Positions 2,559 through 58,235 of a stretch of 64,000 nt of DNA are shown here, piece after piece. Under the pieces are notes generated by a model. The model ran no database searches. It had not been told where the DNA came from and saw only the letters and a list, made by a program, of their open reading frames with translations. Origin of the DNA: Candidatus Adlerbacteria bacterium (GTDB taxonomy: Bacteria; Patescibacteriota; Minisyncoccia; Phycocordibacterales; SBAW01); the NCBI GenBank assembly GCA_037135035.1, contig JBAXLB010000001.1, positions 94,465-158,464 on the forward strand, written 5' to 3'. Position numbers and translations under genes: made by a program. How positions within the stretch are numbered: the stretch's first letter is position 1; every line of letters begins with the position of its first letter.

Positions 2559-5500
2559 CTACAGAGCTTTCATTGCTTCGGCAACCATGGAAAGTTCGCC
2601 GTTGCGGTTAGAGACGCGGCCTTTCATGGCAACACAGGTTTCTGGTTTTAACATGTCTTTGTGGGTGGCGTAGTCTTTAGGGAATACAACCGCTTCAATA
2701 GAGCCGTCAAAGTCGGCGAGTTTGATAAACGCCATCTGGTCGCCGCCGCGAGTAAGTATCATGCGAACGTCTTCTATCATGCCGGCGGCAACAGCGGTCA
2801 TGCCGGGCATGATGCGCTGCTTCATCTGGCCTATTGTCATGGGGCGTTTGAGCAGTTTTTCGCGATATTTGTCGAGCGGGTGGCCGGAAATGTAGAGGCC
2901 GAGCAATTCTTTTTCCCACGCAAGGCGAGTTTCGGCAGTTGCGACAGGTGCGTCTGGAAGCTTTATTTCGCTCGATGCACCTGCGTCTGCAAACAAAGAG
3001 TCTTGGCTTTGTTCCGCTCCTGCGTCGCGGTGGTATTGCAGCAACAACTCAAGCGAGGCGAGCATTTGTCCGCGCTCACCAAGCGAGTCGAGTGCGCCGC
3101 ATTCTATTAAAGACTCCAAGCCTCGTTTGTTTAAACTTGTTTTGCCCACGCGCGTGAGGAACGTTGAAAGCGACGTGAACGGTCCGTTTTCTTTCCGCTC
3201 GGCAAGTATGGCGTCGGCAACACCTGCACCAAAGTTTTTTATTGAGTAGAGTCCGAAACGGATGGAGTCTCTGGGAGTTCGCGACACACTCTCTGCGTCG
3301 GTCTTCGGCTCCGCAACCGAGTATGTCGCTCCCTCTGCAAGTATCGCGGTAAAGTCGCCGAAGCTTTCATTAATGTCGGGCGGCAATACAGCCACGCCCA
3401 TGCGTTTACATTCGGCAACCATCACAGAAATAGTATCCAAGTCGCCCGACTCTGCCGTAAGCACTGCGGCCATATACAGTGCAGGGAAGTTGGCTTTCAT
3501 GTACGCAGTTTGGTACGCAACTTTGCCGTAACTTGCAGCGTGTGCTTTACCAAAGCCGTACGCGGCAAAGGGTTCAATAAGTAACCACAATTTTTCTGCC
3601 AACCCGGGGGTTAGTTTGCCAAATTCGACAAAGCCCTTAATTAACTTTTCTTTTTCGGCTTTCATTACTTCGGGAATTTTTTTACCCATGGCTTTGCGCA
3701 ACACGTCGGCCTGCAGCCACGAATAACCAGCGAGCTTTATCGACGTCATCAGCACGTCGTCTTGGTACACAAGTAGGCCGTTGGAAAATTCCAAATATTC
3801 TTTCATGCGTGGGTCCAGGTAGTGCACCAGGTGTGGTTGGTGTTTGCGTTCAATATACTGGGGGATAGTTTCCATCGGTCCCGGGCGGAACAGTGCAACC
3901 ATCGCATTGATGTCGTGTATGGTCGAAGGTTTCAATTCTTTCAAATACCGCGTCATGCCAGTGCCGTTTAGTTGGAAGGTGCCTTCAGTCTCGCCGCGGG
4001 CAAGCATGTCGAATGTTTTTTTGTCGTCGATAGGAACATTTTCAATATCAATTTTTGTCCCGGTGGCTTGCTCTACCAAGGCAACTGCGTGCGCCAAAAT
4101 TGCCAAGTTGCGGATACCAAGGAAGTCGAACTTCAAAAGCCCAGCATCTTCGACCGAATGCATGTCGTACTGGGTAATTATTTTGCCGCCCTTGGGGTCT
4201 TTTTGGAGTGGCGAATATTCTACAAGCGGCTGGGGCGATATAACTACACCCGCTGCGTGTACAGAAATGTGTCGGGCGCTGCCTTCCAGTTTTTTGCCAA
4301 GATCAATTATTTCTTTTGCGTCTTCATCTTCCTTATATATTTTTGCGAGTTCGGGGTTTTCTGCAAGCGCACGCTCGAGTGTCATGGGGAAGCCTTGGCT
4401 CCCAAAAGGAATTTCTTTTGAAATACGGTCGCCCAGGCCGTAGGGGTAGCCAAGCGCGCGTGCTACGTCGCGCACAACGCCGCGAGCCAACATGGTGCCG
4501 AACGTACCAATTTGTGCCACATGGTCCTGGCCATATTTCCGGCGTGCATATTCTATGACCTCGTCGCGCCGGTTGTCGGCGTAGTCCATGTCGATGTCGG
4601 GGGCTGAAGGGCGTTCCGGGTTTAGAAAGCGCTCGAAGGGGAGTTTGTATGCGAGCGGGTCGACGTTGGTAATGCCCAGTGCGTAGGTAACCATCGAACC
4701 TGCGACCGAACCGCGGATGGTTGTCAAAATCCCGTTGGTACGTGCAAAGTTTAACAGGTCGGCCACCACCAAAAAGTATGGCGAATATCCTTTGGTACAA
4801 ATAATCCCGTACTCATATTCAATACGTTCGCGCACGGTGGCGCTTTCGTGCAGGCCGCGGCGCACCAACCCTTCTTCCATAAGGCGGCGGAGTTCGCTGT
4901 CGTAGGTGGTGCCTGCAGGAATAGGGAAGTCGGGGAACACCCACGAGCCAAGTTTTAATTCGACATTACACCTGTCGGCAATTGTGACTGTTTGTGCAAG
5001 TTGTTCTGGCGTAAATTGCTCTTTCATTTCGGCGGCGGTAGGGAAATGGAAGTCCTCTTCTTCTAAACGGGCATTGTCTGTGCCGTCGCTGTGGGCAATT
5101 TTACGCAAGGTCTCCCACGCGCGACGGTCTTCAGGGCGTACATAAAATATCTCGCGCAACGCAACGTCGGTATATAAATTTTTCTCTCCAAAAATTTCGC
5201 GCAGTGTGGGGTCGCTTTGGCTGCTTGTTGCAATAGCGATAACCCCAGCGCTGCGTGCGCGCAGTACGTCGTAGCTGACAGCTATAGCTCCCGCATTTTC
5301 TTTAAAATAAGAGTCTGTTACTGTGGCGAGCAGGTTTTTGTAACCTTCATTATTTTCGGCAAGCAACACCACACGACCGCCAGTTTCGAGTGCAATGTCC
5401 ACGCCAACAATTGGTTTAATCCCTGCATCTTTACATTCTTTTATAAACTCAATGGCCCCGTACATGTTGCCCAAGTCCGTAAGAGCAATTGCTTCGCACC

Positions 5501-17059: not shown

Positions 17060-23911
<6,852 letters not shown>

Positions 23912-43168: not shown

Positions 43169-43669
43169 CTATGCTACAAAGCGGTAGCCTACACCACGTA
43201 CTGTTTCAAAACGGGGCGATGTGGGAGTGCGCTCTAGTTTTTTGCGGAGATTTTTCATGTGTACGTCGAGTACGTTGCTCCAGGTCATGGAATTAAAATC
43301 CCACACATGGCTGGAAAGTTCTTCGCGGGTAAATACCTCGCCGGGTCGGCGGAGAAAACATTCGAGCAAGGCGTATTCTTTAAGTGTGAGCGCTATCTCG
43401 GTGTCGTTTACAAACACTTTGTGCATTGCAGTGTCGATAGTAATGTCGCCGACGGTATGTACAACAGTTGGGATAGTTGCGGGGCGGCGTGCAACCGATG
43501 CAACGCGTGCAATAAGTTCTTCTGTAGAAAATGGTTTAACGACGTAGTCGTCTGCACCGGCGTTTAGTAACTCTACTTTGTACGCTGTTTCGCTCCGACC
43601 GGTGAGGATAATGATAGGGGTCGTAATTTTCTCAGCTCGTAGGCTCTTGGTTATAGCCATGCCGTCCAT
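43169..43669 (-). CDS. OmpR-family response regulator lacking the N-terminal ~55 aa of the receiver domain (no phospho-acceptor Asp); possibly degenerate.
   Basis: Winged-helix C-terminal domain (LTLKEYALLECFLRRPGEVFTREEL...RGVGYRF). The receiver starts at MDG, after the expected D. Only 44 bp separate it from the upstream SET gene, so there is no room for the missing segment. Confidence 0.6.
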   Translation of the reverse strand: MDGMAITKSLRAEKITTPIIILTGRSETAYKVELLNAGADDYVVKPFSTEELIARVASVARRPATIPTVVHTVGDITIDTAMHKVFVNDTEIALTLKEYALLECFLRRPGEVFTREELSSHVWDFNSMTWSNVLDVHMKNLRKKLERTPTSPRFETVRGVGYRFVA

Positions 43670-43712: not shown

Positions 43713-44126
43713 TTACTGAGGGCTACATTTTGTACAGCGACAACCTTTTGGTTTTATATACGTGTCGAAATACTCTTCGTCGTAGTCGTAGGTTAACTCT
43801 TCGCCTACTTTGATGCGTCGTAAGGCAAAGACAAAAATCCTTTTATTGCGTATGTCTATTTCGCAATTTGGTGCACAGGAGTGGTTGATGTATTTGGCGG
43901 TATTGCTTGCTGTATTGCCGTCGATCATTGTTTTTTTACTTGTTTCAAACAAATATTTCCCGCGATGGGTGTACTGCTCGCTTCCAGTAACTGGGCGGCC
44001 GGTGTATTCGATAATGCAGGTACCTTTCGGGATCTCTTGCTCGGCAAACAATCCTTTCCCTGTGCGCGAGAGGCCAATACGGAGATGTAATTTTTCTGGC
44101 GTAAAATGTCGGACAATCTTTTTCAC
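43713..44126 (-). CDS. SET-domain protein (lysine methyltransferase-like), 137 aa with post-SET Cys cluster.
   Basis: NHSCAPNC and ELTYDY SET signatures, C-terminal CRCTKC. Confidence 0.75.
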   Translation of the reverse strand: MKKIVRHFTPEKLHLRIGLSRTGKGLFAEQEIPKGTCIIEYTGRPVTGSEQYTHRGKYLFETSKKTMIDGNTASNTAKYINHSCAPNCEIDIRNKRIFVFALRRIKVGEELTYDYDEEYFDTYIKPKGCRCTKCSPQ

Positions 44127-46550: not shown

Positions 46551-46808
46551 CCTATCCTCCTGTGCAGTTCAAGCCCAACTATACAAGTTTATTAAAATAT
46601 GTCAGCTCCGCATGGTGAACGACGTCAGAACTTGGAGTTTGGAGCAAATTGGGCTCATTTCGCCACTATCAAGAGATACAGCGACTTTGGAATAAATTCG
46701 CACCACAGAGGGTCGCAGCAAGGCACGTAAGACATCCATAAAGACCGGATGACTTGCTTTGGGAGCCAAAATAGCCTTTATTTTATGAAAGCAGGATATT
46801 GACAAGAA

Positions 46809-46849
46809 TTGGCAAGTTAGTTGTAAGGCTTGCCAAAACTTGACATAAT
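46809..46849 (+). promoter_or_regulatory. Candidate promoter (TTGTAA-N17-CATAAT) overlapped by an 8-bp inverted repeat TTGGCAAG-N12-CTTGCCAA. Putative operator for the HTH domain of the downstream methyltransferase.
   Basis: Sequence read directly; the -10 hexamer lies ~25 nt upstream of the ATG at 46875. Confidence 0.4.
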
Positions 46850-46874
46850 TTCCCAAAAGGTAGAAGATGCCTTT

Positions 46875-49052
46875 ATGAATGAAACACAAGACGACAGACT
46901 TTACACGTTGCAGGAGGTGGCGGACATGCTTCATGTTAGCGAGCGTACGACTTTCCGCTACATTCACGATAAGAAATTGAACGCAAAGAAAATTGGGGGT
47001 GCATGGCGTGTTACAAGTGCTGATCTCAAAGCATTTCTTGCAGGAGAAGCGCCGGAGGTGCTTCGCGCTGTTGAGAAGGACATGGTGGGCAAGCGCGATA
47101 GTTTGACGAAAGCCGACATTAAGCGCGTGTGCGACATTCTGCGCCGCGACGATGGCGTCGGGGCGAAGGATTACATCGAGCAATTCTCATGGCTCCTATT
47201 TCTCAAAGTATTCGAGGGCGTCGAAGCGCAGCTCAAGGAACTTGAAGAGGCTGAAGGGCGAAAATATAAATCAGTCATTGATGCCGAATACCAATGGTCG
47301 GCGTGGGCCAAGAAGGACTGGAAGGACAAGGATGAACTCATTCATTTCATAAATCAGAAACTCTTCCCTTACTTGCAAACGTTGCAGGGAGACCCACGCC
47401 GCGACAAGATCGGTCAGATATTCCGCGAACTGCCGGGCAACCGCATCCGCTCGCCTCATAACCTTCTTGATGTCATCGATATTCTCAACAAGATAGAGAA
47501 ACATCATTTTCAGGATACAAACCTTCTCTCGCAGGTCTATGAAGAAATCTTGCAGGCGATGGGAAGCGAAGGTGGCTGGTCGGGGGAGTTCTATTCTCCA
47601 AGACCGCTCATCCGCCTCATGGTCAAAATCGTAAATCCGATGCTCGGTGAGACAGTTCTCGATCCTTTCGTTGGGTCGGGCGGCTTCCTCGTGGAAAGCT
47701 TCAATCACATCTACGAAAACTCTGCAAAAGATGTTCGTGCATGGAAAACACTCCAAACTAAAACGCTCTACGGGCAGGAAAAGAAACCGTTGCCATTTCT
47801 AATCGGCACGATGAACCTCATTTTACATCATGTCCTCGTGCCTAATCTCGTACGCACGAACACCTTTATGGAGGATGTGCACAACACGCCCGAAAGCGAG
47901 AAAGTAAACGTGATTTTGACGAACCCTCCATTTGGTGCGGAAGAATCGAAAGCGGTGCAGAACAACTACCCGATCCAAGTTGGAGCGACCGAAGGTCTTG
48001 CGCTTCAGTATGTGATGAAGCGCCTCAAAAACGGCGGCCGGTGCGGCATCATTCTTCCGGAGGGCAACGTATTGTTTGGTGGAGGAGCCATGGCTCGCAT
48101 ACGCGAGGAGCTTCTCACAAAATTTAATGTGTCGGCAATCATTTCTCTACCGCAAGGTACTTTCTCCCAAATGGGGACTGGTATTAAGACCAACCTCATA
48201 TTCTTTGAAAAAACTGGCGGTACAAAGGAGATTTGGTATGGCGAAGTAAAGGGAAAGTTTACTAAGAAGAAAACCGTGCAAGATAGCGACTTGTATGAGG
48301 TGTTCGAGAAGTGGAAAAAGCGTGAAAATTCAGATACTTCTTGGACAGTGCCTATAGCTACTATCAAGGAGCAGGGTTATAACATATTGCCAAAGAACCC
48401 AAACACCACGAATGAAATGTTCGAGAGCCCGGATGAATTGATACAAGCTTTAGAAAATGGACAGAGCGCAGTTGAGAAAGCAATACAGTCACTTGGCTCA
48501 CTTTATAGAAAACTCTCGGTAACCTCAGCGGGACAAAGATATTCATTGACAGAACTTTTTGACCGATTGCCAGCCGGAAGGAAATATTCTAAGAAAGAGG
48601 TGCGAGATGAAGGCAAGGTGCCCGTCATTGACCAGAGCCAGAGTGATGTGTTTGGTTATCACAACCTTAAGCCGGATATTCATGCGTCAGAGGGTGAACC
48701 TGTTATTACCTTCGCTAACCACACAAGAGCTGTTAGGTATATGACCCATGATTTCTCGGTAATACAAAATGTATTTCCATTACGCGCAAAAGCCGTCATT
48801 TTACCTCGCTTCGGTTACTACTTGCTACAAGAAGTAGTTCCAAATGAGGGCTATAAGGGTCACTGGCCTCTGCTCGAGAAAATGAGCTTTTCCATTCCTG
48901 ATTTAAAGAGTCAGGCAGAGATTGTTAAAATCGCCGATGCCATATGGGAACATATCTCTGAACTGCAAAAGCAAGTTGGTAAACAGCATTCTGATTTGAT
49001 GCTGTTTCGGAGTTCATTCTTGCTATCAATATTTCAAGCTGAGGATAAATAG
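46875..49052 (+). CDS. hsdM: Type I R-M methyltransferase fusion: N-terminal excisionase-type HTH, HsdM N6-adenine MTase, and a C-terminal single HsdS target-recognition domain.
   Basis: HTH YTLQEVADMLHVSERTTFRYIHDKKLNAKKIGGAWRV. MTase motif I DPFVGSGGFL and motif IV NPPFG. C-terminal ~250 aa matches the HsdS TRD pattern ending in the conserved PLLEKMSFSIPDLKSQAEIV region. The listed ORF starts at a TTG at 46830; the ATG at 46875 is preferred. Confidence 0.8.
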   Translation: MNETQDDRLYTLQEVADMLHVSERTTFRYIHDKKLNAKKIGGAWRVTSADLKAFLAGEAPEVLRAVEKDMVGKRDSLTKADIKRVCDILRRDDGVGAKDYIEQFSWLLFLKVFEGVEAQLKELEEAEGRKYKSVIDAEYQWSAWAKKDWKDKDELIHFINQKLFPYLQTLQGDPRRDKIGQIFRELPGNRIRSPHNLLDVIDILNKIEKHHFQDTNLLSQVYEEILQAMGSEGGWSGEFYSPRPLIRLMVKIVNPMLGETVLDPFVGSGGFLVESFNHIYENSAKDVRAWKTLQTKTLYGQEKKPLPFLIGTMNLILHHVLVPNLVRTNTFMEDVHNTPESEKVNVILTNPPFGAEESKAVQNNYPIQVGATEGLALQYVMKRLKNGGRCGIILPEGNVLFGGGAMARIREELLTKFNVSAIISLPQGTFSQMGTGIKTNLIFFEKTGGTKEIWYGEVKGKFTKKKTVQDSDLYEVFEKWKKRENSDTSWTVPIATIKEQGYNILPKNPNTTNEMFESPDELIQALENGQSAVEKAIQSLGSLYRKLSVTSAGQRYSLTELFDRLPAGRKYSKKEVRDEGKVPVIDQSQSDVFGYHNLKPDIHASEGEPVITFANHTRAVRYMTHDFSVIQNVFPLRAKAVILPRFGYYLLQEVVPNEGYKGHWPLLEKMSFSIPDLKSQAEIVKIADAIWEHISELQKQVGKQHSDLMLFRSSFLLSIFQAEDK

Positions 49053-49053
49053 T

Positions 49054-51507
49054 ATGGCTTACTCAGAAGATGACACAAGGGTTAAACTTATAGACCCAAA
49101 AATACACGAAGCAGGATGGAAGGAGGAATACATCCTTCGCAACTATGCTATTGCCGACGATCGCTTTTACGTTGAGGGTGAGGAATATAAACGACTTCCG
49201 ACTGCTAAATTTGCTGATTATGTGCTGACTTACAACAATCTCACCATCGCTGTGCTCGAAGCAAAGGCGGAAGATGAAGAGCCTCTTAAGCATATGAGTC
49301 AGGCGCAGGATTACGCAAAGCGCCTCGATGTGCCGTTCGCGTACATCTCAAATGGCAAGACAATCTACCTGCACGATCGGCGCACAAAGAAAACGGAGAA
49401 GGTCTCGTCGTATCTTTCGCCCGAGGAGATGCATAAAGCATATCTGGAGTGGAAGGGGCTCGCGAATCAGAATCTCTCGGCGCTCGAATATCCACTCTAC
49501 ATAAGTGGAACCAAACGCCCCCGTGCCTATCAGGAAACCGCTATTAAGGATGTGGTGGAAAATATCACCAAGGGTAAGAAGGCGACGCTCCTCACGATGG
49601 CAACCGGCACCGGTAAGACTTTCACGGCCTTTCAAATCGTATGGAAACTCGTCAAATCGAAATCCATGCACCGCGTCCTCTTCTTGAGTGATCGCGTCAT
49701 CCTTCGCGATGACTCATACAGTCGAGACTTCGAACCATTCGGTGAGACGCGCCACAAGATAGAAGGAGGTAACTTCAATAAGAATCGCGATATCTACTTC
49801 GCTACATATCAAACCCTTTTCACCAACGACCTCTACAAGGACATCCCATCGGACTTCTTTGATCTCATCGTTATAGACGAGTGTCACCGCTCCCGCTATG
49901 GCGACTGGGGTGCGGTTTTGGATCACTTCGGTTCTGCCGCTCAACTTGGCATGACCGCTACTCCGAAGCGCGAAGACAATATTGACGTGTATGACTATTT
50001 TGGAGAGCCTGTTTTTGAATACTCGCTCGGACAGGCAATAGACGACGGGTACCTCGTGCCATACAAAATCTACAAAGTTACAACCAATCTTTACCGCAAG
50101 GGTTTGAATGTCGCTGCAGCAGAAGAAGTCATTTACGATGATGAAATTGAGCCCGCGGACGTGAAGGACTTTTACGAGCCGTCCGAGTACGAGCGTGCGG
50201 TTACCATTCCGGAACAGATAGACCTTCTCTCAAGCAAGGTCATTCAGGTGCTCAACGACACTAACCAGTATGGAAAAACAATCGTCTTTTGCGTCGACAT
50301 GGCACACGCTCAAGCAGTCAAGGACAAACTCAACGAAATCAAAGGGAGGGAGGATTACGCTACCCGCATCGTGGCGGAGGATAAAGATGACCTAACTGTT
50401 TTCCGCGATAAAGAGCGGCCGATGCCGGTTGTTGCGACAACGGTAGATTTGCTCTCGACAGGCGTGGATATTCCACACATCCAAAATATCGTGTTTATGC
50501 GCCCGATTGCATCGCGCGTGCTCTTCAAGCAAATCATGGGCCGTGGTTCCCGTCTCTCCGAAGGCAAAGGGTTCTTTAGGATCATTGACTTCACCAATGC
50601 GACACGGCTCATTGATGATTGGGATATTCCCCCAGAGCCGCCTAAGCCGCCCTCTCCGCCAGAGGAACCGATGCCACCGATGGATAAACTGCTCATGGGT
50701 ATTGTCGTAGACAACACGACCGAAGAGCCGGTTGCAAGCGCAATCGTCAAAGCAAAACTTGGGCGCTGGGAGAAGGTCGGAAAGACAGATGAACATGGCT
50801 TCTTCAAGTTGTTTGGCTTGCCGTCCAACGACAAGGTAAACGTGCATATTGAACATGCTGACTACAAGGTATTGAACAAAACCTTAAAACCCCACACGTC
50901 CGACGAAGAGATGCCGTACGAGTTCCGCCTGAAGGCGCTTCGCTCCACGCCGAAGAAAATAACCGTTAAAGGTATCGAGGTTACGATCGACGAGGAAGTT
51001 GAGATTGAGTTCGACGGCATAAAACTCTCAAAAGCAGAATATCGTAGATTCTCCGGGGAGAAGATAGTGGAAATGGTGCATACCACGGACGAACTACGTG
51101 CAGTGTGGCTCGACCCTGAGAAGCGTGAGCTATTCATGGCGGACTTGGAGTCAAAGCGCGTCAATATTCCACTCATTAAATCCATCGAGAACTTAGAAGA
51201 CAGTGACGCATTTGACGTGATAGCTCATATTGCCTTCAACGCGCCGCTTCTCACACGCGAAGACCGCGTCAAGCAGTTTATGCGTGCCAATTCGCAACTC
51301 ATTGACCAGTACGGAACGGAAATTGGCGAAGCCGTTCGCAACATCATGGAAAAATACAAGACCGGCGGCGAAGAGAATATATCGTCACAAGCATTTCTTT
51401 TGCCGAACATGAACGCAAAGAAAGAAGCAATACAGGCTCAATACCCAGGGGGGCTTTTTGGCTTTGTCCGCGGATTAAAAGAGAAGATCTACGAGTTTAG
51501 TAAATAG
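49054..51507 (+). CDS. hsdR: Type I restriction enzyme R subunit (HsdR-like), 817 aa, with an inserted Pro-rich linker plus Ig-like (CarboxypepD_reg-like) domain and an EcoEI_R_C-like C-terminus.
   Basis: N-terminal PD-(D/E)xK nuclease region (DYVL...EAKAED), SF2 helicase motifs TMATGTGKT and VIDECHRS. PPEPPKPPSPPEEPMPP linker then GIVVDNTTEEPVASAIVKAKLG...TDEHGFF beta-sandwich. C-terminal DVIAHIAFNAPLLTREDRVKQ. Confidence 0.85.
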   Translation: MAYSEDDTRVKLIDPKIHEAGWKEEYILRNYAIADDRFYVEGEEYKRLPTAKFADYVLTYNNLTIAVLEAKAEDEEPLKHMSQAQDYAKRLDVPFAYISNGKTIYLHDRRTKKTEKVSSYLSPEEMHKAYLEWKGLANQNLSALEYPLYISGTKRPRAYQETAIKDVVENITKGKKATLLTMATGTGKTFTAFQIVWKLVKSKSMHRVLFLSDRVILRDDSYSRDFEPFGETRHKIEGGNFNKNRDIYFATYQTLFTNDLYKDIPSDFFDLIVIDECHRSRYGDWGAVLDHFGSAAQLGMTATPKREDNIDVYDYFGEPVFEYSLGQAIDDGYLVPYKIYKVTTNLYRKGLNVAAAEEVIYDDEIEPADVKDFYEPSEYERAVTIPEQIDLLSSKVIQVLNDTNQYGKTIVFCVDMAHAQAVKDKLNEIKGREDYATRIVAEDKDDLTVFRDKERPMPVVATTVDLLSTGVDIPHIQNIVFMRPIASRVLFKQIMGRGSRLSEGKGFFRIIDFTNATRLIDDWDIPPEPPKPPSPPEEPMPPMDKLLMGIVVDNTTEEPVASAIVKAKLGRWEKVGKTDEHGFFKLFGLPSNDKVNVHIEHADYKVLNKTLKPHTSDEEMPYEFRLKALRSTPKKITVKGIEVTIDEEVEIEFDGIKLSKAEYRRFSGEKIVEMVHTTDELRAVWLDPEKRELFMADLESKRVNIPLIKSIENLEDSDAFDVIAHIAFNAPLLTREDRVKQFMRANSQLIDQYGTEIGEAVRNIMEKYKTGGEENISSQAFLLPNMNAKKEAIQAQYPGGLFGFVRGLKEKIYEFSK

Positions 51508-51532: not shown

Positions 51533-52810
51533 ATGCCAGACTCACACAAAACCAGCGCCGTGATGATTGACTGTCCCAAGTGCGGCGAGACTTACGAGAT
51601 AACAGAAGCGCTCCGTGAGTCGATTGCTGAAAAAGCGAAGGCAGAAGTACTTGCTGATGTTTCTAAGCGAGAGAAAGCTCTTGCGTCGCAAGAGGCAGTC
51701 ATTGCAGGTGAAAAGGAACAGATGGAAAAGCTCAAAGCAACGGAGGCAGAACGGGTCAAGCGAGAAGTAACTAAGCGTGTAGATGAAGAGCGCACAAAGG
51801 TTGTTGCAGATGCAAAAAAGCAGGCACAAGAGGAACTTCGTGTTGAGCTGAAGGATAAGGAGGAGCAGATCAAGGAAAAAGACGCAGCACTCAAAATTGC
51901 TCAAGAAGCAGAGCTCTCTGCCAGAAAGAGAGAACGCGAAGCGGACGAGAGAATCAAGACCGCAGACCTCGAAGTTGAAAAAAAGCTTGCATCTAAACAG
52001 GGTGAGATGGAAGTCGAGATAAGCAAACGATACAACGAAGAGTTTGCTGCAAAAGAACGCCAGAATCAAAAGAAAATAAGCGACCTTGTTCAGCAACTGG
52101 AGGAGGCCAAGATAAAAGCTGAACAAGGATCTCAGCAACTTCAAGGTGAGGTTCAGGAACTTGATCTCGAGCAAGCACTACGTGAAGCGTTTCCGCAGGA
52201 TGTAATCGAGCCTGTCGGCAAGGGCATAAGGGGTGCTGATATTAGACAACGAGTGCAGTCCAGTTCGGGGCGCCTTGCTGGCGTAATTCTGTGGGAGTCA
52301 AAGCAAACAAAAACATGGTCAGACGGCTGGCTCGGCAAACTCAAAGATGACCTTCGCGCCGAGGCAGCAAACATTCCGGTGATCGTGAGTGTTGCAATGC
52401 CTGAGGAAGCGAAAGCAGGATTCGGACAAAAAGAAGGCGTATGGGTGTGCAAGCCGGGCATGGCCATCGGTGTCGCTCATGCTTTCAGACGCCAGCTGCT
52501 TGACGTCGCTTTGGCAAACGCGCAGGCGGAGAGTCGCGGCACACTTGCTGACTCTCTCTATGACTACGTCATAAGCCATGAATTCAGGCAACAGATCGAA
52601 TCGATGGTGGAGGTCTATCGAGAAATGAAAGAGCAGATTGGACGGGAAAGAATTGCTTATGAAAAGTCATGGAAAATACGCGATGCTCAGGTCGACAGAA
52701 TGTTCGTCGGCACGGCACGTGTCGTGGGTTCAATACAAGGTAAGCTCGGGAGCACTGCATTCGGTCCTGTTAAAGGATTGGAATTGCTTGAGGGTCCAGA
52801 AACTGAATAG
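51533..52810 (+). CDS. DUF2130-like protein: N-terminal CPKCG zinc-ribbon half, ~200-aa Lys/Glu coiled-coil, conserved C-terminal globular domain.
   Basis: Domain layout read from the translation. Starts 26 bp after hsdR, and its stop is 4 bp from the next gene. Confidence 0.55.
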   Translation: MPDSHKTSAVMIDCPKCGETYEITEALRESIAEKAKAEVLADVSKREKALASQEAVIAGEKEQMEKLKATEAERVKREVTKRVDEERTKVVADAKKQAQEELRVELKDKEEQIKEKDAALKIAQEAELSARKREREADERIKTADLEVEKKLASKQGEMEVEISKRYNEEFAAKERQNQKKISDLVQQLEEAKIKAEQGSQQLQGEVQELDLEQALREAFPQDVIEPVGKGIRGADIRQRVQSSSGRLAGVILWESKQTKTWSDGWLGKLKDDLRAEAANIPVIVSVAMPEEAKAGFGQKEGVWVCKPGMAIGVAHAFRRQLLDVALANAQAESRGTLADSLYDYVISHEFRQQIESMVEVYREMKEQIGRERIAYEKSWKIRDAQVDRMFVGTARVVGSIQGKLGSTAFGPVKGLELLEGPETE

Positions 52811-52813
52811 TCT

Positions 52814-54082
52814 ATGGCAAAGGCTATTTTCTATTCTTGGCAATCTGATACTCCAAATAAGGTTGGCCGTTCTTTCATAAAAGATGTACTTGAAGAGGTG
52901 TGCGCGGACCTTGCCACGGATGCATCTTTGGATGAAGCTCTTCGCGATGTGGAAGTCGATAGCGACACACAAGGGATTGCAGGGCAACCTCCCATTGCTG
53001 AAACGATTTTCAAAAAAATAGATGCCGCCTCGGTCTTTGTGGCTGACCTGACCTTTACTGGAACACGTATGGACGGACGACCCGCGCCAAATCCAAATGT
53101 CCTAATTGAATATGGATGGGCTCTGAAGTCTCTTACATATTCACGTGTGATCTGCGTTATGAATACAGCCTACGGTGAGCCAAATAATGACACTTTACCG
53201 TTTGATCTCGCACATCTTCGATGGCCTATAAGATACACGTTGTTTGAAGAGTCTACTCCCCAAGAGAGAGCCGACGAAAAAAGAAAGCTGTTTAATGTGC
53301 TCAAGGAAGCGATTAGGCTGAGCATAGCGGCTGTGCCTTCGCCAACTCCGGACCCGCCGCCGGTCTTTCCAGCTGTAGTTGCAAAGGACGGACCAGCTCG
53401 ATTTCGTAGCAAAGGTGAAGCGATAGGCTTCGAAGACGGTCTCCATTACGGAGAATCTACAAAGGAAATATTTCTAACCCCAGGGCCTGCGATGTGGCTT
53501 CGGCTGATGCCGTCAACGAAACCAGAGGGAGAATGGACTCCACGGCAATTGAAAGAATTGTCCTCTCCCAGATCATTACTCATGCCACTAATTCATCCGG
53601 CAGGAGGCTATTCATATCTCAGAGCTTCTGATGGAGAAGGCATGTACCGTGCATCTGATAGTCAAACAGAAGGTTCAATAATCAACATTGCTGGGGTTAC
53701 ATTTGCTTTCAAAACTGGAGAAGTATGGGGCATCGAGACAGCGTTACTTAACTACAGTGAAAACCGTCTCTATATGACGGAAGTAGAACAGAAATTCGTC
53801 GAGGGTATCCTTACTTACTCACAATTTCTAAATGAGCTTGGCATCAACCCTCCCTATCATTGGAAGGCCGGTTTAACTGGCGTGAGAGGTCGGCAAATCG
53901 GATATGCCCCGCGGCCGGGCCATAACTGGATCCGCGATGGAGGCCCGCCCTGCGCCACTGACTTGATCGAAGCCGAGGGAGAGATACTGCCTGATCAACC
54001 GGCAACTACTGCATTACTACCATTCTTCAAAAAGGTATTCGAGGAGTGCGGAATCGAACGTCCAGACTATCTGCCACAATAA
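52814..54082 (+). CDS. TIR-like-domain protein (N-terminal ~170 aa) with a ~250-aa C-terminal domain of unknown function.
   Basis: N-terminal KAIFYSWQSDTPN...AASVFVADLTF...NVLIEYGWAL follows the (V/I)F(I/Y)S(Y/W)xxxD - hydrophobic strand - conserved-Glu pattern of TIR/DUF1863 folds. The C-terminal half is unrecognised. Confidence 0.45.
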   Translation: MAKAIFYSWQSDTPNKVGRSFIKDVLEEVCADLATDASLDEALRDVEVDSDTQGIAGQPPIAETIFKKIDAASVFVADLTFTGTRMDGRPAPNPNVLIEYGWALKSLTYSRVICVMNTAYGEPNNDTLPFDLAHLRWPIRYTLFEESTPQERADEKRKLFNVLKEAIRLSIAAVPSPTPDPPPVFPAVVAKDGPARFRSKGEAIGFEDGLHYGESTKEIFLTPGPAMWLRLMPSTKPEGEWTPRQLKELSSPRSLLMPLIHPAGGYSYLRASDGEGMYRASDSQTEGSIINIAGVTFAFKTGEVWGIETALLNYSENRLYMTEVEQKFVEGILTYSQFLNELGINPPYHWKAGLTGVRGRQIGYAPRPGHNWIRDGGPPCATDLIEAEGEILPDQPATTALLPFFKKVFEECGIERPDYLPQ

Positions 54083-54338
54083 AAACAGAATCTAATGCTG
54101 GATATCGTTTCTGTGTGGGGTAGAATGTGAGCGTAGCTCTTTAAGTTACAACAATTGAATAAAAAGGACCTAACCCGCAGTCACTGCGGCAAGGTCGACA
54201 AGTCGTATAAGGCACAAAGAACCCATCATGGGGTCGCCTTATACGCCATATCGGGAAACTGGTATGAGTGGCTTCGGCCACTACCCGTGGTGGGCTTTTT
54301 GTGACCATCACGGGATTAGCAACTAAGGCTAATTGCCA

Positions 54339-54897: not shown

Positions 54898-55437
54898 CTA
54901 AATCATCTGTGCTCTCTTTGCGAGATCTGCGGGCAAACGCTCCAATATCCATGATGACTGAGTGCGAAGGAAGAACAACTTCCATATTCTTGAGCAACTA
55001 AAAAAATACCTCGTCCTAACTTGCCACGGCCTTTCATCTTCGAACTCGTCGTGCCTGATCATGATTACTATCTTTTCATAACCGGGTTGAAACATACTGT
55101 CCATAAAGCAGCGACGCAGAGGTACGCGACCGCGAGTCTCTAAATCTTTAGCGAGAGCCTCAATAACTTTGTCGAGGGCACCCGAAGCGGCCCATTCGTG
55201 AAGTCGTCGATGGCATGACTGAAAGGGTGGGTATCCTTCGCGCGTCAGTCTCCTCAATGTGACGCCCTTCTCCAATAGTAGAAGTACTCCATCAAGTAAC
55301 TGACGGTCAGACTGCCTTTTGCGGCCTCTGGTTTCCAAACGTTGAGGGCGTGATACGAGAGGTGCAACTAATTGCCATTGCTTGTCCGATAAATGGAAGG
55401 TCACAAATAAATTGTAGCGCCAGTCATTAAAAGACAC
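54898..55437 (-). mobile_element. IS5-family (IS427/IS1182-like) transposase remnant: OrfA-like N-terminal HTH (DUF4096) only. The DDE catalytic domain is absent.
   Basis: LSDKQWQLVAPLV...RGRKRQSDRQLLDGVL...RRLHEWAASGALDKVIEAL matches the conserved start of IS5/IS4-family OrfA. No DDE-bearing continuation in any frame. Confidence 0.55.
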
Positions 55438-56489: not shown

Positions 56490-58235
56490 ATGAAAGCGAA
56501 TATTACATACGCTTCGTATGCACGCAAATCCTCCGAAGCAGAAGATAAACAAGCTCTCTCAATCGAGTCGCAAGCAGATGCGTTAAAGAGACTTGCGAAG
56601 AATAAAGAGGTTGATCTAAAAGAAGAAAATATTCTTGAAGAGTCGCATTCAGCAAAACAAGCGTTTGCAAGACCCGTATTCGAGCGATTGTTAAAAGAAA
56701 TCGAGTCCAGAAAGGTGCAAGGAATACTCGCGTGGCACCCAAATAGACTTTCTCGTAACGCTATCGATGCTGCACGTCTCATCCAGCTGATGGATGAAGA
56801 AAAGTTGATAGAAATACTTACACCAAGTCAAACGTTTAAGAACACCCCACAAGATAAGTTCTTCTTCCAGATGATGACGAGTCAGGCAAAAATGGAAAAT
56901 GATACCAAGGGCATCGAGGTGCGCAGGGGGTTACGTAAAAAGAATCAAATGGGTTTTCCAGGAGGGGTGGCAAAACCCGGCTACGAAAATGACTACGGCC
57001 TCAAGGGCCAGCGAAAGATAATAGTGGATCTGGAACGGTTCGAACTTGTAAAACAGATGTTTAAACTCTTTTTGTCAGGTAAATACTCTGTCCGGAAGCT
57101 GACCAAATATGCCGAGGAAGTAATGGGCTTGCGCTCAATACAGCGAACAAAAGAAGGTGGGAAGCCCCTCGCATTGTCGCGCGTTTACGCCATTCTACAA
57201 GACCCATTCTATGCTGGATTCTTTTACGGTAAAGATGAAGACCGAGAGACTGTGCGCTACGAGGTAAACGAGGCTCTGCCACGCATGATTACCGAGGAAG
57301 AGTATTGGGAAATACAGGCCATGCTGGGGCGCAAAGGGGTGCCACGGCCGACCATCAACAAGCGTATATTTCCTTACACCGGTAGAACCAAATGCGGCAC
57401 GTGTGGCGGTAGCGTTACGGCGGAGCACAAACACCAGCTCATCTGCTCGGAATGTAAGTACAAATTTGCTTATCAAAACAAGACGGTGTGCCCAACATGT
57501 GAGACAAAAATAAGCGATATGGATAACGCAGTCTACTTGCACTACATCTACTATCACTGCACCAAGAAGCGAAGTGCGGATTGTCCAGAAGGAAGTGTAC
57601 AAGAGTTTAAAATAGACGACTCCATGGCGGAGTACGCTGAAAATAACTTCACCATATCAAAGTCATTGAGCGACTGGTGCATCCAGCATCTGGATGAACT
57701 GGCAAAAAATGACAAACAGAATGAGTATGAGCGCAAAGGAACCTGGGAGCGTGAACTTGCCCAAAAGGAGAAAGAGAGCGAGGAGCTGGTGCGCATGCGT
57801 ATCAAAGGGCTTATTACCGACGATGCTGAGTTCTTTAAGCATAAGGCAACCCTTGAGGCCGACAAGAAACGAATTAAACAAGTACTCACCGATATGGGAG
57901 GTACAGATATGACAACTCTGGAGAAGGCCAAAGAGGCCTTCAGTCTCGTCGTAGGGGTAGCCGAGGTTTTCCGCAAAGGCACCTTTGATGAGAAACAAGA
58001 GGCTCTTTCAGCTCTTGGCTCGAACCTAACGCTGAAGGACAAAAAACTCAACGTTATCAACAAAGAAATCTTCTCGGTGATTACAAAAGGCCTTCTTGAG
58101 GCTAAGGCAGTAAACAAGGCGTTCGAACCTAAAAACTGTGAGGCAGATAAAGACGAAACCGAGGTCTTTACCTCGGTTCGTCCAACTATGCTCCGCGACC
58201 AGGACTCGAACCTGGAACCAACTCCTTACACGTGA
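56490..58235 (+). CDS. Large serine recombinase (resolvase/invertase N-terminal catalytic domain, recombinase domain, zinc ribbon, coiled-coil); integrase of a putative integrated element.
   Basis: Catalytic-serine region YARKSSEAEDKQALSIESQ, zinc ribbon CGTCGG...C...C, long coiled-coil C-terminus. The last ~45 nt overlap the tRNA-Asn 3' exon on the opposite strand. Confidence 0.85.
   Translation: MKANITYASYARKSSEAEDKQALSIESQADALKRLAKNKEVDLKEENILEESHSAKQAFARPVFERLLKEIESRKVQGILAWHPNRLSRNAIDAARLIQLMDEEKLIEILTPSQTFKNTPQDKFFFQMMTSQAKMENDTKGIEVRRGLRKKNQMGFPGGVAKPGYENDYGLKGQRKIIVDLERFELVKQMFKLFLSGKYSVRKLTKYAEEVMGLRSIQRTKEGGKPLALSRVYAILQDPFYAGFFYGKDEDRETVRYEVNEALPRMITEEEYWEIQAMLGRKGVPRPTINKRIFPYTGRTKCGTCGGSVTAEHKHQLICSECKYKFAYQNKTVCPTCETKISDMDNAVYLHYIYYHCTKKRSADCPEGSVQEFKIDDSMAEYAENNFTISKSLSDWCIQHLDELAKNDKQNEYERKGTWERELAQKEKESEELVRMRIKGLITDDAEFFKHKATLEADKKRIKQVLTDMGGTDMTTLEKAKEAFSLVVGVAEVFRKGTFDEKQEALSALGSNLTLKDKKLNVINKEIFSVITKGLLEAKAVNKAFEPKNCEADKDETEVFTSVRPTMLRDQDSNLEPTPYT

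What the first reader, a model, noticed from the sequence alone, without database searches (positions are those of the whole stretch)
46809..51507. Atypical Type I restriction-modification architecture: HTH-HsdM-single-TRD HsdS fusion with an operator-like palindrome, and HsdR with an inserted Ig-like domain
The methyltransferase ORF carries an excisionase-family HTH at its N-terminus and a single HsdS-type target-recognition domain at its C-terminus; there is no separate hsdS. Immediately upstream, an 8-bp inverted repeat TTGGCAAG-N12-CTTGCCAA overlaps a TTGTAA-N17-CATAAT promoter. This is a plausible autoregulatory operator for the fused HTH, analogous to C-protein control in Type II systems. 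The HsdR (817 aa, short) contains a Pro-rich linker (PPEPPKPPSPPEEPMPP) and a CarboxypepD_reg-like beta-sandwich inserted before the EcoEI_R_C-like tail. With a single TRD the enzyme probably recognises its site as an M-S dimer.
Basis: partly seen in the sequence, partly recalled or inferred. Interest (0 to 1): 0.55.

Follow-up and report, generated by a model that had tools for sequence, protein, structure and literature searches.

The report
Two-gene restriction system with built-in regulator
This is a bacterial DNA-restriction system of an already described compact kind (methylase fused to half a specificity subunit, plus a separate cutter), whose one less ordinary feature is a DNA-binding domain fused to the methylase that probably switches the operon's own promoter off.

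Summary
The sequence observations all hold. ORF 46875-49052 is HTH_17 + HsdM + one HsdS target-recognition domain. hsdR (49054-51507) belongs to the EcoAI/FtnUII family and carries a Pro-rich linker and a transthyretin-like beta-sandwich. No other hsdS lies in the 64 kb. The inverted repeat TTGGCAAG-N12-CTTGCCAA sits at 46809-46836.

The "atypical architecture" is not new. A natural HsdM-S1/2 fusion from Vibrio vulnificus YJ016 is solved (PDB 7EEW), is reported to act as an (M1S1/2)2 dimer, and aligns with this protein across both the M and S parts. About 40% of the nearest cluster representatives have fusion length. The HsdR length is normal for its family. The beta-sandwich occurs throughout the Patescibacteria relatives and in Herpetosiphon.

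The less ordinary part is the HTH. In many relatives it is a separate small gene directly upstream of hsdM; here it is fused. Upstream of these genes lie conserved 7-bp palindromic boxes (TTGNCAA) 10-11 bp apart, overlapping the promoter. They are absent upstream of hsdM genes that lack this HTH.

Autorepression by the fused HTH is therefore the best reading. It is inferred, not shown. It parallels Type II HTH-methylases and RptR.

The parts
46799..46805 (+). Box 1, TTGACAA (7-bp palindrome), outer left box of the putative operator
   Evidence: Read from the sequence. Part of the extended inverted repeat 46800-46816 / 46829-46845. Matches the two-box unit on the minus strand with 1 mismatch.
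46809..46816 (+).
   Evidence: Conserved as ATGGCAAG in L003 at the same N12 spacing.
46829..46836 (+).
   Evidence: It is the first half of TTGCCAA-N3-TTGACA. That motif occurs exactly once in each of 10 related loci, always upstream of the HTH gene, against 0.018 expected.
46840..46846 (+). Box 4, TTGACAT. It may double as the -35 hexamer of promoter candidate B, or as the TG-extended part of the -10 of candidate A.
46821..46849 (+).
   Evidence: Promoter scan, 9 of 12 matches. Consensus match only.
46840..46868 (+). Promoter candidate B: TTGACA-N17-GAAGAT. It would start transcription at or next to ATG 46875, giving a leaderless mRNA.
   Evidence: Inferred from relatives, where TTGACA is followed after 16-18 nt by TATACT or TATCAT lying 7-8 nt before the ATG (L003, L005, L016). 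The -10 in the window itself is weak.
46875..49052 (+). hth-hsdM-hsdS(1/2) fusion gene, 725 aa
   Evidence: Motif I DPFVGSG (aa 263) and motif IV NPPF (aa 350) are intact.
46899..47045 (+). HTH_17 (excisionase/MerR-like) DNA-binding domain, aa 9-57
   Evidence: Pfam E 4.8e-12. TIGR01764 is above its cut-off. Model pLDDT 84-90.
47109..48416 (+). HsdM_N plus the gamma-class N6-adenine methyltransferase domain, aa 79-514
   Evidence: PADLOC MTase_I, 431 bits. 5ybb_A, E 2e-117.
48429..48515 (+). M-tail helix, aa 519-547. It is the end of the ancestral HsdM, directly joined to the TRD.
   Evidence: Model helix H519-547. Alignment with the separate 547-aa HsdM of L001 ends at aa 540.
48534..48896 (+). 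Single target-recognition domain, aa ~554-674
   Evidence: 40-48% identical to stand-alone PF01420 proteins. Weakly similar to TRD1 of the EcoR124 HsdS.
48903..49046 (+). Conserved-region (CR) helix, aa 677-724, the presumed dimerisation helix
   Evidence: Model helix H677-724. Function inferred from the half-S dimers in PMC3874165 section 26 and from 7EEW.
49054..51507 (+). hsdR, 817 aa, EcoAI/FtnUII family
   Evidence: NF046051, 661 bits against a 550 cut-off. 3h1t_A, E 2e-115. Motifs D55...E69-x-K71, GTGKT at 185 and DECH at 275 are present.
50629..50679 (+). Pro-rich linker PPEPPKPPSPPEEPMPP, HsdR aa 526-542
   Evidence: Conserved in relatives.
50689..50931 (+). Transthyretin-like (CarboxypepD_reg-like) beta-sandwich, HsdR aa ~546-626
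   Evidence: Pfam E 1.6e-3, below the cut-off. AlphaFold pLDDT ~80-86. Foldseek 3mn8 E 1e-5 and 5aq0_A TM 0.80. This region has no counterpart in the NF046051 profile.
51037..51462 (+). EcoEI_R_C tail, HsdR aa 662-803
   Evidence: Pfam E 6e-11. Maps to NF046051 profile positions 609-741.
51533..54082 (+). Two tightly packed downstream genes: DUF2130 (425 aa) and a 422-aa protein with a weak TIR-like hit. They are probably co-transcribed cargo.
   Evidence: Gaps of 25 and 3 nt. Pfam results. No PADLOC hit. No homologue in related loci.
54277..54301 (+). First terminator-like hairpin on the + strand after the operon
   Evidence: Pattern match only.

Best explanation
What it is. This is a functional-looking Type I restriction-modification operon in a Candidatus Adlerbacteria (Patescibacteria) genome. 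It is of the compact 'M1S1/2' kind.

The enzyme. One polypeptide carries the N6-adenine methyltransferase, its C-terminal tail helix, one target-recognition domain and one conserved-region helix. Two copies should pair through their CR and tail helices. The pair would rebuild the usual M2S1 core with two identical TRDs in opposite orientation. It would therefore recognise and methylate a symmetric bipartite site. Two copies of the adjacent EcoAI-family HsdR would dock on it for ATP-driven translocation and cleavage of unmethylated DNA.

The regulator. The extra N-terminal HTH_17 domain is a fused copy of a small regulator gene that sits directly in front of hsdM in related genomes. It most likely binds the four TTGNCAA boxes, whose centres lie 10, 21 and 10 bp apart at 46799-46846. 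These boxes overlap the operon promoter. Rising methyltransferase concentration would then repress transcription of the whole operon (M-S, R and probably the two downstream genes).

The HsdR insert. The Pro-rich linker and beta-sandwich replace the acidic linker that other family members have between the motor domains and the MTase-binding tail. Its role is unknown; it is probably a spacer or an interaction module.

Shown versus inferred. Domain content, homology, conservation of the boxes and their link to the HTH are shown. Dimerisation, a palindromic target, DNA binding by the HTH and repression are inferred.
For: Identity of the system.
- Searches give the domains.
- One search aligns aa 83-698 with 7eew_A residues 6-613, E 2e-47.
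- One search gives V. vulnificus YJ016 HsdR (3h1t) as the best solved relative of the HsdR.
- PMC12429846, citing Seo et al. 2022, states that two M1S1/2 fusions recapitulate M2S1.
- PMC3874165 section 26 shows that half-S subunits give palindromic specificity.
- Catalytic motifs are intact.
- An independent JGI assembly gives the same fusion, P0002.

The fusion is a recurrent, selected format.
- L065/L066, L067, L068/L069 and L003/L055 all have M-S followed by hsdR and no hsdS.
- At least five TRD types occur in fused form.
- About 62 of the 150 best cluster representatives are 640-780 aa. Seven of ten sampled carry one Methylase_S domain.

The fusion is derived. L001, 84% identical in M, has separate hsdS.

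The regulator.
- The HTH is a separate 60-85-aa gene overlapping or abutting hsdM in L009, L012, L013, L015, L016, L017, L025, L033, L045, L056, L057, L059, L062, L063 and L065.
- Tandem TTGNCA boxes occur in 16 of 23 distinct HTH-associated upstream regions and in 1 of 31 without this HTH. Fisher p = 1.6e-7, and the single exception is a masked HTH locus.
- Exact TTGCCAA-N3-TTGACA occurs once in each of 10 loci, always just upstream of the HTH start, against 0.018 expected.
- Box variants go with variant recognition helices.
- In L003 the arms and the N12 spacing are kept while the spacer sequence differs.
Against: - No experiment of any kind exists for this locus.
- TTGACA is also the sigma-70 -35 consensus, so part of the box signal may be the promoter itself.
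- The closest HTH-M relatives (L001, L004, L006) have only degenerate boxes.
- The comparisons are not corrected for shared ancestry.
- The two candidate promoters cannot be told apart. The -10 of candidate B is weak in the window.
- The model of the M domain has low confidence in aa 61-105 and 208-372.
- Only 64 kb of a 327-kb contig, from an incomplete genome, could be searched for a second hsdS.
- Homodimeric half-S enzymes had been demonstrated only for Type IC as of 2013 (PMC3874165). For this family the sole support is the Vibrio structure.
Confidence: 0.6

Rival explanations
1. The boxes are ordinary promoter elements: a -35 hexamer plus near-copies. The HTH does something other than autoregulation. 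It could act as the excisionase or directionality factor of the integrative element that carries the system, or as a non-specific DNA tether for the methyltransferase.
For: - HTH_17 is the excisionase family.
- A large serine recombinase lies 2.4 kb downstream of the operon at 56490-58235.
- Recombinases flank L003, L065, L067 and L068.
- TTGACA equals the -35 consensus.
Against: - The HTH gene is always immediately 5' of hsdM, translationally coupled or fused to it, and not next to the recombinase.
- The boxes are missing from 30 of 30 genuinely HTH-less hsdM upstream regions of the same bacterial group.
- Three or four boxes at helical-turn spacing exceed what a promoter needs.
- Box sequence co-varies with the HTH helix.
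Confidence: 0.2
2. The M-S fusion acts as a monomeric half-enzyme with one HsdR, like a Type ISP enzyme split in two. It would recognise a short asymmetric site and need two head-to-head sites for cleavage.
For: - One TRD per polypeptide, as in LlaGI and LlaBIII. PMC3510504 describes Type ISP as carrying the M-S fusion idea further.
- Weak HsdR matches to LlaGI and LlaBIII.
Against: - The fusion keeps the full CR helix and the M-tail helix that form the four-helix pivot of the dimer.
- The homologous Vibrio enzyme is reported as a dimer (PMC12429846).
- The HsdR is a bona fide EcoAI-family subunit with the EcoEI_R_C tail.
Confidence: 0.1
3. The fusion pairs with a separate HsdS or half-HsdS encoded elsewhere in the genome. 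The real specificity would then be asymmetric.
For: - Separate half-size hsdS genes of 179-200 aa exist in related loci.
- Systems that combine full and half S subunits are reported (PMC12429846, PMC10030836).
- Only 64 kb of the contig was searched.
Against: - No hsdS-like ORF in the window.
- Five independent related loci also lack one next to M-S and hsdR.
Confidence: 0.07
4. The fusion is a decay product. A deletion removed TRD1 and joined hsdM to the rest of hsdS, leaving the system inactive.
For: A close relative (L001) has the three-gene form, so a deletion or fusion event did occur.
Against: - All catalytic motifs are intact.
- There are no frameshifts or internal stops.
- The same format recurs with many TRDs across distant lineages, and it is solved in Vibrio.
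Confidence: 0.03

Closest known systems
Vibrio vulnificus YJ016 Type I system: M1S1/2 'minimal intact methyltransferase' (PDB 7EEW; Seo et al. 2022, Int J Biol Macromol 208:381, as cited in PMC12429846) with HsdR (PDB 3H1T, PMC2777439)
   Same: - HsdM is fused through its tail helix to one TRD and one CR helix.
- hsdR is a separate gene of the EcoAI-like family.
- Sequence homology runs across both the M and S parts and across HsdR.
- The expected assembly is an (M1S1/2)2 dimer on a symmetric site.
   Different: - The Vibrio chain aligns only from window aa 83 onward, so no counterpart of the window's N-terminal HTH is seen in that alignment.
- The plasmid-borne Vibrio HsdR that was aligned (V. 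fluvialis) has no beta-sandwich. The YJ016 HsdR construct ends before that region.
- Identity is low, about 21% in the structural alignment.
'Type IMS' engineered EcoKI HsdM-HsdS fusion (Roberts et al. 2012, PMC3510504)
   Same: M and S lie in one polypeptide with a separate HsdR. The authors explicitly extend the name to fusions with a single TRD.
   Different: - The EcoKI fusion is artificial.
- It carries two TRDs.
- It needs an extra free HsdM.
- It belongs to Type IA.
Half-HsdS homodimers: EcoR124I(delta50), EcoDXXI truncations, natural NgoAV (PMC3874165 section 26)
   Same: A single TRD plus one helix dimerises to give a palindromic bipartite specificity.
   Different: Those are Type IC enzymes. 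The half-S is a free subunit, not fused to M.
Regulatory Type II methyltransferases with an N-terminal HTH (SsoII, Ecl18kI, EcoRII; PMC12707154 section 11)
   Same: An HTH is fused to the N-terminus of the methyltransferase. It binds an operator in the promoter region, so methyltransferase level feeds back on transcription.
   Different: - Those are m5C Type II enzymes with divergent R and M promoters.
- Here the enzyme is an m6A Type I methyltransferase at the head of a single operon.
- The HTH family is different.
- The relationship is by analogy, not homology.
RptR, repressor of Type I R-M / DarTG islands in Gammaproteobacteria (PMC12255303)
   Same: - A small regulator is encoded as the first gene of a Type I operon.
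- It represses its own promoter through three repeats, each containing a short palindrome (6 bp there, 7 bp here), overlapping core promoter elements.
- Accessory defence genes are embedded in the operon.
   Different: - RptR is a distinct four-helix protein, not HTH_17.
- It is never reported fused to HsdM.
- Its motif is TAGCTA.
- Homology was not tested here because no RptR sequence was at hand.
C (controller) proteins, including the C gene upstream of hsdMSR in Mycoplasma gallisepticum (PMC12707154 section 13)
   Same: A small HTH gene upstream of R-M genes controls their transcription. C-REase fusions are known.
   Different: - C proteins are XRE-type.
- They usually activate and then repress through C-boxes.
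- The HTH here is HTH_17.

Membership tests
Type I R-M, EcoAI/FtnUII-family HsdR | NCBIfam equivalog NF046051 score above its curated cut-off | tested here: met
   661.2 bits against a cut-off of 550.
Type I R-M, EcoAI/FtnUII-family HsdR | PD-(D/E)xK nuclease, SF2 motor motifs and a C-terminal EcoEI_R_C domain | tested here: met
   D55...E69-x-K71, GTGKT at 185 and DECH at 275. ResIII, Helicase_C and EcoEI_R_C hits.
Type I R-M (classical definition) | Separate HsdS subunit with two TRDs, giving M2S1 | tested here: not met
   One TRD, fused to M. No other hsdS in the window.
Type IB family in the strict sense | Subunit complementation or antibody cross-reaction with EcoAI/EcoEI | not testable with these tools
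   These are genetic and biochemical criteria (PMC3510504 introduction).
M1S1/2 fusion methyltransferase ('Type IMS', 7EEW type) | One chain containing HsdM, tail helix, a single TRD and a single CR helix | tested here: met
   Model elements H519-547, TRD 554-674 and H677-724. PADLOC half-profile match. Alignment to 7eew_A residues 6-613.
M1S1/2 fusion methyltransferase ('Type IMS', 7EEW type) | Separate adjacent hsdR and no hsdS in the operon | tested here: met
   hsdR starts 2 nt after the M-S stop. HMM search of the window finds no hsdS.
M1S1/2 fusion methyltransferase ('Type IMS', 7EEW type) | Homodimer (M1S1/2)2 that methylates a symmetric bipartite site | not testable with these tools
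   No multimer prediction and no methylome were available. Inferred from PMC12429846 and PMC3874165.
Regulatory HTH-methyltransferases (SsoII/Ecl18kI/EcoRII type) | N-terminal HTH fused to the methyltransferase | tested here: met
   HTH_17 at aa 9-57.
Regulatory HTH-methyltransferases (SsoII/Ecl18kI/EcoRII type) | Operator in its own promoter bound by the HTH, leading to autorepression | tested here: inconclusive
   Conserved boxes overlap the candidate promoters and track the HTH. Binding and repression cannot be tested here.
Regulatory HTH-methyltransferases (SsoII/Ecl18kI/EcoRII type) | Type II m5C methyltransferase homologous to SsoII | tested here: not met
   The enzyme is a gamma-class N6-adenine Type I HsdM. 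The relationship is a functional analogy only.
C (controller) proteins | XRE-type HTH (HTH_3) of the C-protein family | tested here: not met
   The only HTH hits are HTH_17, excisionase and MAD1-like.
MADS (MAD1 HTH + MAD2 methyltransferase) | NCBIfam equivalog scores above cut-off | tested here: not met
   MAD2 scores 89 bits against 720. MAD1 scores 31.3 bits against 80.
Type ISP / Type IIG single-polypeptide enzymes | Nuclease (and motor) in the same chain as the methyltransferase and TRD | tested here: not met
   HsdR is a separate ORF. The IIG model scores far below the MTase_I models.
RptR repressors | Sequence homology to the 79-aa RptR | not tested
The paper describes a fold with no close PDB relatives (PMC12255303).

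The most novel reading that the evidence does not exclude
The HTH_17 module, either free-standing or fused to HsdM, together with its TTGNCAA box array forms an undescribed transcriptional control circuit for Type I R-M systems in Patescibacteria and their relatives. The window would hold the first 'regulatory methyltransferase' of a Type I system. The dimeric (HTH-M-S)2 enzyme would itself be the repressor, with its two HTHs reading box pairs one helical turn apart. Enzyme assembly and copy number would thereby be coupled directly to operon transcription, possibly from a leaderless mRNA.
Probability: 0.5. Interest if true: 0.5.

Novelty: new variant of a known kind. Interest (0 to 1): 0.35.

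Why it matters
[quoted passage not shown] The first dedicated repressor, RptR, was described only in 2025.

If the fused HTH autoregulates, it would extend the 'methyltransferase as its own repressor' principle from Type II to Type I enzymes. It would also give a simple, testable circuit: four boxes, one domain. The organisms concerned have tiny genomes, cannot be cultured alone, and depend heavily on R-M for defence.

The split-or-fused HTH and the conserved boxes also offer a ready-made comparative data set.

The M-S1/2 fusion itself, the HsdR length and the beta-sandwich are of minor interest. The first is already solved structurally and is common. The others are family or clade traits.

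Tried and rejected
- Assembly or frameshift artefact as the cause of the fusion: rejected. An independent JGI assembly gives the identical fusion, and many lineages share the format.
- MADS membership, suggested by the MAD1 and MAD2 hits: rejected. Scores are far below the cut-offs.
- The beta-sandwich as a unique insertion: rejected. It is present in all Patescibacteria relatives examined and in Herpetosiphon pHAU02 HsdR. It is absent from E. coli and Vibrio family members.
- Searching with only the HsdR C-terminal 307 aa returned just 16 mostly fragmentary proteins. This gave no picture of distribution. The plasmid tblastn plus alignment was used instead.
- Sequence-only PDB search with the S part alone gave just a weak hit to EcoR124 HsdS TRD1, E 0.004. 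This is too weak to predict the recognition sequence of the window's TRD.
- Literature searches for a Type I HsdM with a fused HTH found nothing. The library lacks most subscription journals and REBASE, so this is absence of evidence only.
- Composition: GC of the R-M region (46-50%) does not stand out from the window. There are no tRNA genes in the window.
- The two downstream genes have no PADLOC match and no homologue in the related loci. Their link to the system rests on tight spacing alone.


Full report
**Source and gene content**

The window comes from a Candidatus Adlerbacteria (Patescibacteria) metagenome-assembled genome. The 725-aa protein encoded from ATG 46875 is identical to an NCBI entry on a 327-kb contig.

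Four genes lie head to tail on the + strand:
- the methyltransferase fusion, 46875-49052;
- hsdR, 49054-51507;
- a DUF2130 gene, 51533-52810;
- a 422-aa gene, 52814-54082.

The first terminator-like hairpin on that strand follows at about 54277.

**Checking the observation**

The fusion protein:
- Pfam finds HTH_17 (aa 9-57, E 4.8e-12), HsdM_N, N6_Mtase and a sub-threshold Methylase_S at aa 556-700.
- NCBIfam's excisionase-family domain model is above its cut-off.
- PADLOC matches aa 555-720 to the first half (positions 17-179 of 375) of a two-TRD specificity-subunit profile, E 8e-18.
- An AlphaFold model places a globular TRD (aa 554-674) between two long helices (519-547 and 677-724) at pLDDT 85-95.
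- Foldseek recovers HsdM and HsdS structures.
- An HMM built from 22 hsdS genes of related loci hits no other ORF in the window.

The inverted repeat and promoter:
- The repeat lies at 46809-46816 and 46829-46836, found once against 0.02 expected.
- It extends to 17-nt imperfect arms.
- The promoter-like TTGTAA-N17-CATAAT is found by the scan.

HsdR:
- It scores above the EcoAI/FtnUII equivalog cut-off.
- Residues 1-519 and 657-791 map to profile positions 2-534 and 609-741. The 137 residues between them match nothing in NCBIfam.
- That stretch holds the Pro-rich linker and a seven-stranded beta-sandwich modelled at pLDDT ~80-86.
- The best structural matches of the sandwich are the transthyretin-like domains of carboxypeptidases D and N.
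- Catalytic motifs of both enzymes are intact.

**The M-S fusion is a known and common format**

The decisive result came from the structure comparison.

- The second-best Foldseek hit is 7EEW, 'intact MTase from Vibrio vulnificus YJ016'.
- phmmer aligns window residues 83-698 with residues 6-613 of that chain. The alignment therefore crosses the M/S junction.
- PMC12429846 summarises that work (Seo et al. 2022): the S1/2 subunit is fused to HsdM, and two M1S1/2 proteins recapitulate the classical M2S1 assembly.
- The best solved relative of the window's HsdR is the HsdR of the same Vibrio strain, 3H1T, E 2e-115.
- Ten years earlier Roberts et al. fused EcoKI hsdM and hsdS. [quoted passage not shown]

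The format is also frequent.
- Among the 150 best representatives of 50%-identity clusters, about 62 are 640-780 aa long with the M domain at the N-terminus.
- Seven of ten sampled carry one Methylase_S domain above Pfam's threshold.
- In Patescibacteria contigs, M-S is followed directly by an 817-822-aa hsdR with no hsdS in L065/L066, L067, L068/L069 and L003/L055.
- At least five unrelated TRD types occur in fused form.
- The window's TRD is 40-48% identical to stand-alone S proteins.
- Related loci also have full-length hsdS (L001) and free half-size hsdS of 179-200 aa.

In L001, whose HsdM is 84% identical, the alignment with the window ends at residue 540 of 547. The window's TRD follows immediately. 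The fusion therefore joins a complete HsdM, tail helix included, to a TRD-CR unit. This is the topology needed for a dimer built on a four-helix pivot.

**The HsdR features are family or clade traits**

- E. coli and Vibrio EcoAI-family HsdR are 810 and 770 aa. They have an acidic or Pro-rich linker where the window has the sandwich.
- All five Patescibacteria relatives examined, and the 899-aa HsdR of Herpetosiphon plasmid pHAU02, have the sandwich.
- Relatives at 56-75% identity keep both the Pro-rich linker and the sandwich.
- Nothing here indicates what the sandwich does.

**The HTH and the operator**

This part goes beyond what I could find described. I fetched about 60 related loci with an alignment of the N-terminal 100 residues.

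- In the window's closest clade the HTH is fused to HsdM (L001-L006).
- In about fifteen other loci a homologous HTH_17 is a separate ORF of 60-85 aa with a basic tail. It overlaps or abuts the hsdM start.
- Such split-or-fused behaviour argues that the HTH works with the methyltransferase gene.

Upstream of the HTH start, most loci carry two to four copies of a 7-bp palindrome, TTGNCAA, spaced 10-11 bp apart. A typical example is CTTGCCAAGTTTTGACAAATGTTGYCAG.

- Tandem boxes occur in 16 of 23 distinct HTH-associated upstream regions. They occur in 1 of 31 upstream regions of hsdM genes lacking this HTH.
- That one exception is L060, an HTH locus whose HTH is hidden by masked bases. Fisher p = 1.6e-7, not corrected for relatedness.
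- The exact motif TTGCCAA-N3-TTGACA occurs once in each of ten loci, always on the coding strand just upstream of the HTH. Only 0.018 matches are expected in 604 kb.
- Loci whose recognition helix differs have different boxes: SYKTIFRYIH in L007/L045, NPRT(V/I)FRLI in L059/L065, and NVMTIYRYIK in L063. Their boxes are TTGGAC-type, TGGACAT and TTGTAAA respectively.

In the window the unit is present twice in inverted orientation: 46830-46845 exact, and 46800-46815 on the minus strand with one mismatch.
- This gives four boxes with centres 10, 21 and 10 bp apart.
- L003, a 78%-identical HTH-M-S fusion, keeps the arms and the N12 spacing while the spacer sequence differs.

The boxes overlap both candidate promoters.
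- Candidate B uses TTGACA at 46840 as the -35.
- In relatives, good -10 hexamers lie 16-18 nt after TTGACA and only 7-8 nt before the ATG. This hints at leaderless transcripts. The window's own -10 in that frame (GAAGAT) is weak.

**Precedents for the proposed mechanism**

- Type II methyltransferases with an N-terminal HTH repress their own promoters: Ecl18kI, SsoII and EcoRII (PMC12707154).
- A C-family gene upstream of hsdMSR represses the operon in Mycoplasma gallisepticum (same review).
- RptR is the first gene of a Type I/DarTG island in E. coli. It represses its promoter through three repeats, each containing a 6-bp palindrome that overlaps the -10 (PMC12255303).
- The same review notes how little is known about Type I transcription.
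- I found no report of an HTH fused to a Type I HsdM. The library is incomplete and REBASE was not available.

**Rival readings**

These are set out in the rival section. The main ones are:
- The boxes may be partly or wholly promoter elements. The HTH may then serve the integrative element that carries the system, since a large serine recombinase lies at 56490-58235 and recombinases flank several related loci.
- The enzyme may act as a monomeric half-enzyme.
- It may pair with an S subunit encoded elsewhere.
- It may be a decay product.

The position of the HTH, the absence of boxes from control loci, the retained dimerisation helices and the intact motifs speak against each in turn.

**Verdict**

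The system is a new member of the known M1S1/2 (7EEW-type) Type I systems. Its one variant feature is a fused HTH regulator with a conserved box array. That feature is plausible, comparatively well supported and untested.

Overall interest is modest, 0.35.

Noticed in passing
L018, L023, L031, L052 (MerR/HTH_17-like tails); L022, L036, L041, L051 (XRE-like tails); last ~130 nt before hsdM: Many hsdM genes that lack the window-type HTH are still preceded by the 3' end of another HTH gene. The tails read '...TLRQWDKKGIL..RIG..' or '...IAKALGVGVDELIK'. A small HTH gene in front of hsdM may therefore be a general feature of Type I operons in these bacteria.
   Followed up: partly
P0018, P0020-P0022, P0056, P0062, P0053 (e.g. 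L065 6001-8007, L067 6001-8004): The TRD of these M-S fusions ('PVLTAGKTFILGYTNE..GIF...LPVIIFDDFTTA.KFVDFPFKVKSSAMKIL') is very close to TRD1 of the EcoR124 HsdS shown. From established knowledge, that TRD reads GAA. These enzymes may therefore recognise GAA-Nn-TTC. The window's own TRD is only weakly similar.
   Followed up: no
P0033 (885 aa), P0043 (864 aa; L068 6001-8595), P0053 (788 aa): Some M-S1/2 fusions carry a further ~120-200-aa C-terminal extension after the CR helix ('FDIQQAIAHILKRIERGEM..AKILY...'). It is not a second TRD. Its identity was not determined.
   Followed up: no
L041, L050, L052, L059, L061, directly downstream of hsdM: These loci have free-standing half-size hsdS genes of 179-200 aa (one TRD plus one helix). 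Full, half and fused S formats therefore coexist in one enzyme family.
   Followed up: partly
window 56490-58235 (+) and 54898-55437 (-): A large serine recombinase (Resolvase + Recombinase, 581 aa) and an IS4/5 DUF4096 transposase fragment lie just downstream of the operon. Serine or tyrosine recombinases also flank L003, L065, L067 and L068. The R-M operon probably rides on an integrative element.
   Followed up: partly
window 51533-52810 and 52814-54082: A DUF2130 protein (N-terminal zinc-ribbon-like CxxC pair and a long coiled coil) and a 422-aa protein with a weak CAP12/Pycsar TIR-like hit (E 0.004) are packed 25 and 3 nt behind hsdR. They have no PADLOC match and no homologue in related loci. 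In those loci this slot holds RmuC+GmrSD (L001), an OLD-family nuclease (L065) or unknown genes.
   Followed up: partly
L003 3995-4675 / L055: A DUF4145 gene is inserted between the M-S fusion and hsdR in the other HTH-M-S locus.
   Followed up: no
L060 (Woesearchaeota MAG UBA10192) 3110-3125 and hsdM; L063 (MAG labelled Gammaproteobacteria): The same box motif and a 78-87%-identical hsdM occur on contigs binned to a DPANN archaeon and to a gammaproteobacterium. This points either to horizontal transfer or to mis-binning.
   Followed up: no
window 43169-43669 (-): An OmpR-type response regulator has a receiver domain that starts at profile position 55 of 111. It is N-terminally truncated or mis-started. 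It lies 44 nt from a SET-domain gene (43713-44126).
   Followed up: no
window 17060-23911 (+): A 2283-aa ORF, the largest in the window. It was not examined.
   Followed up: no
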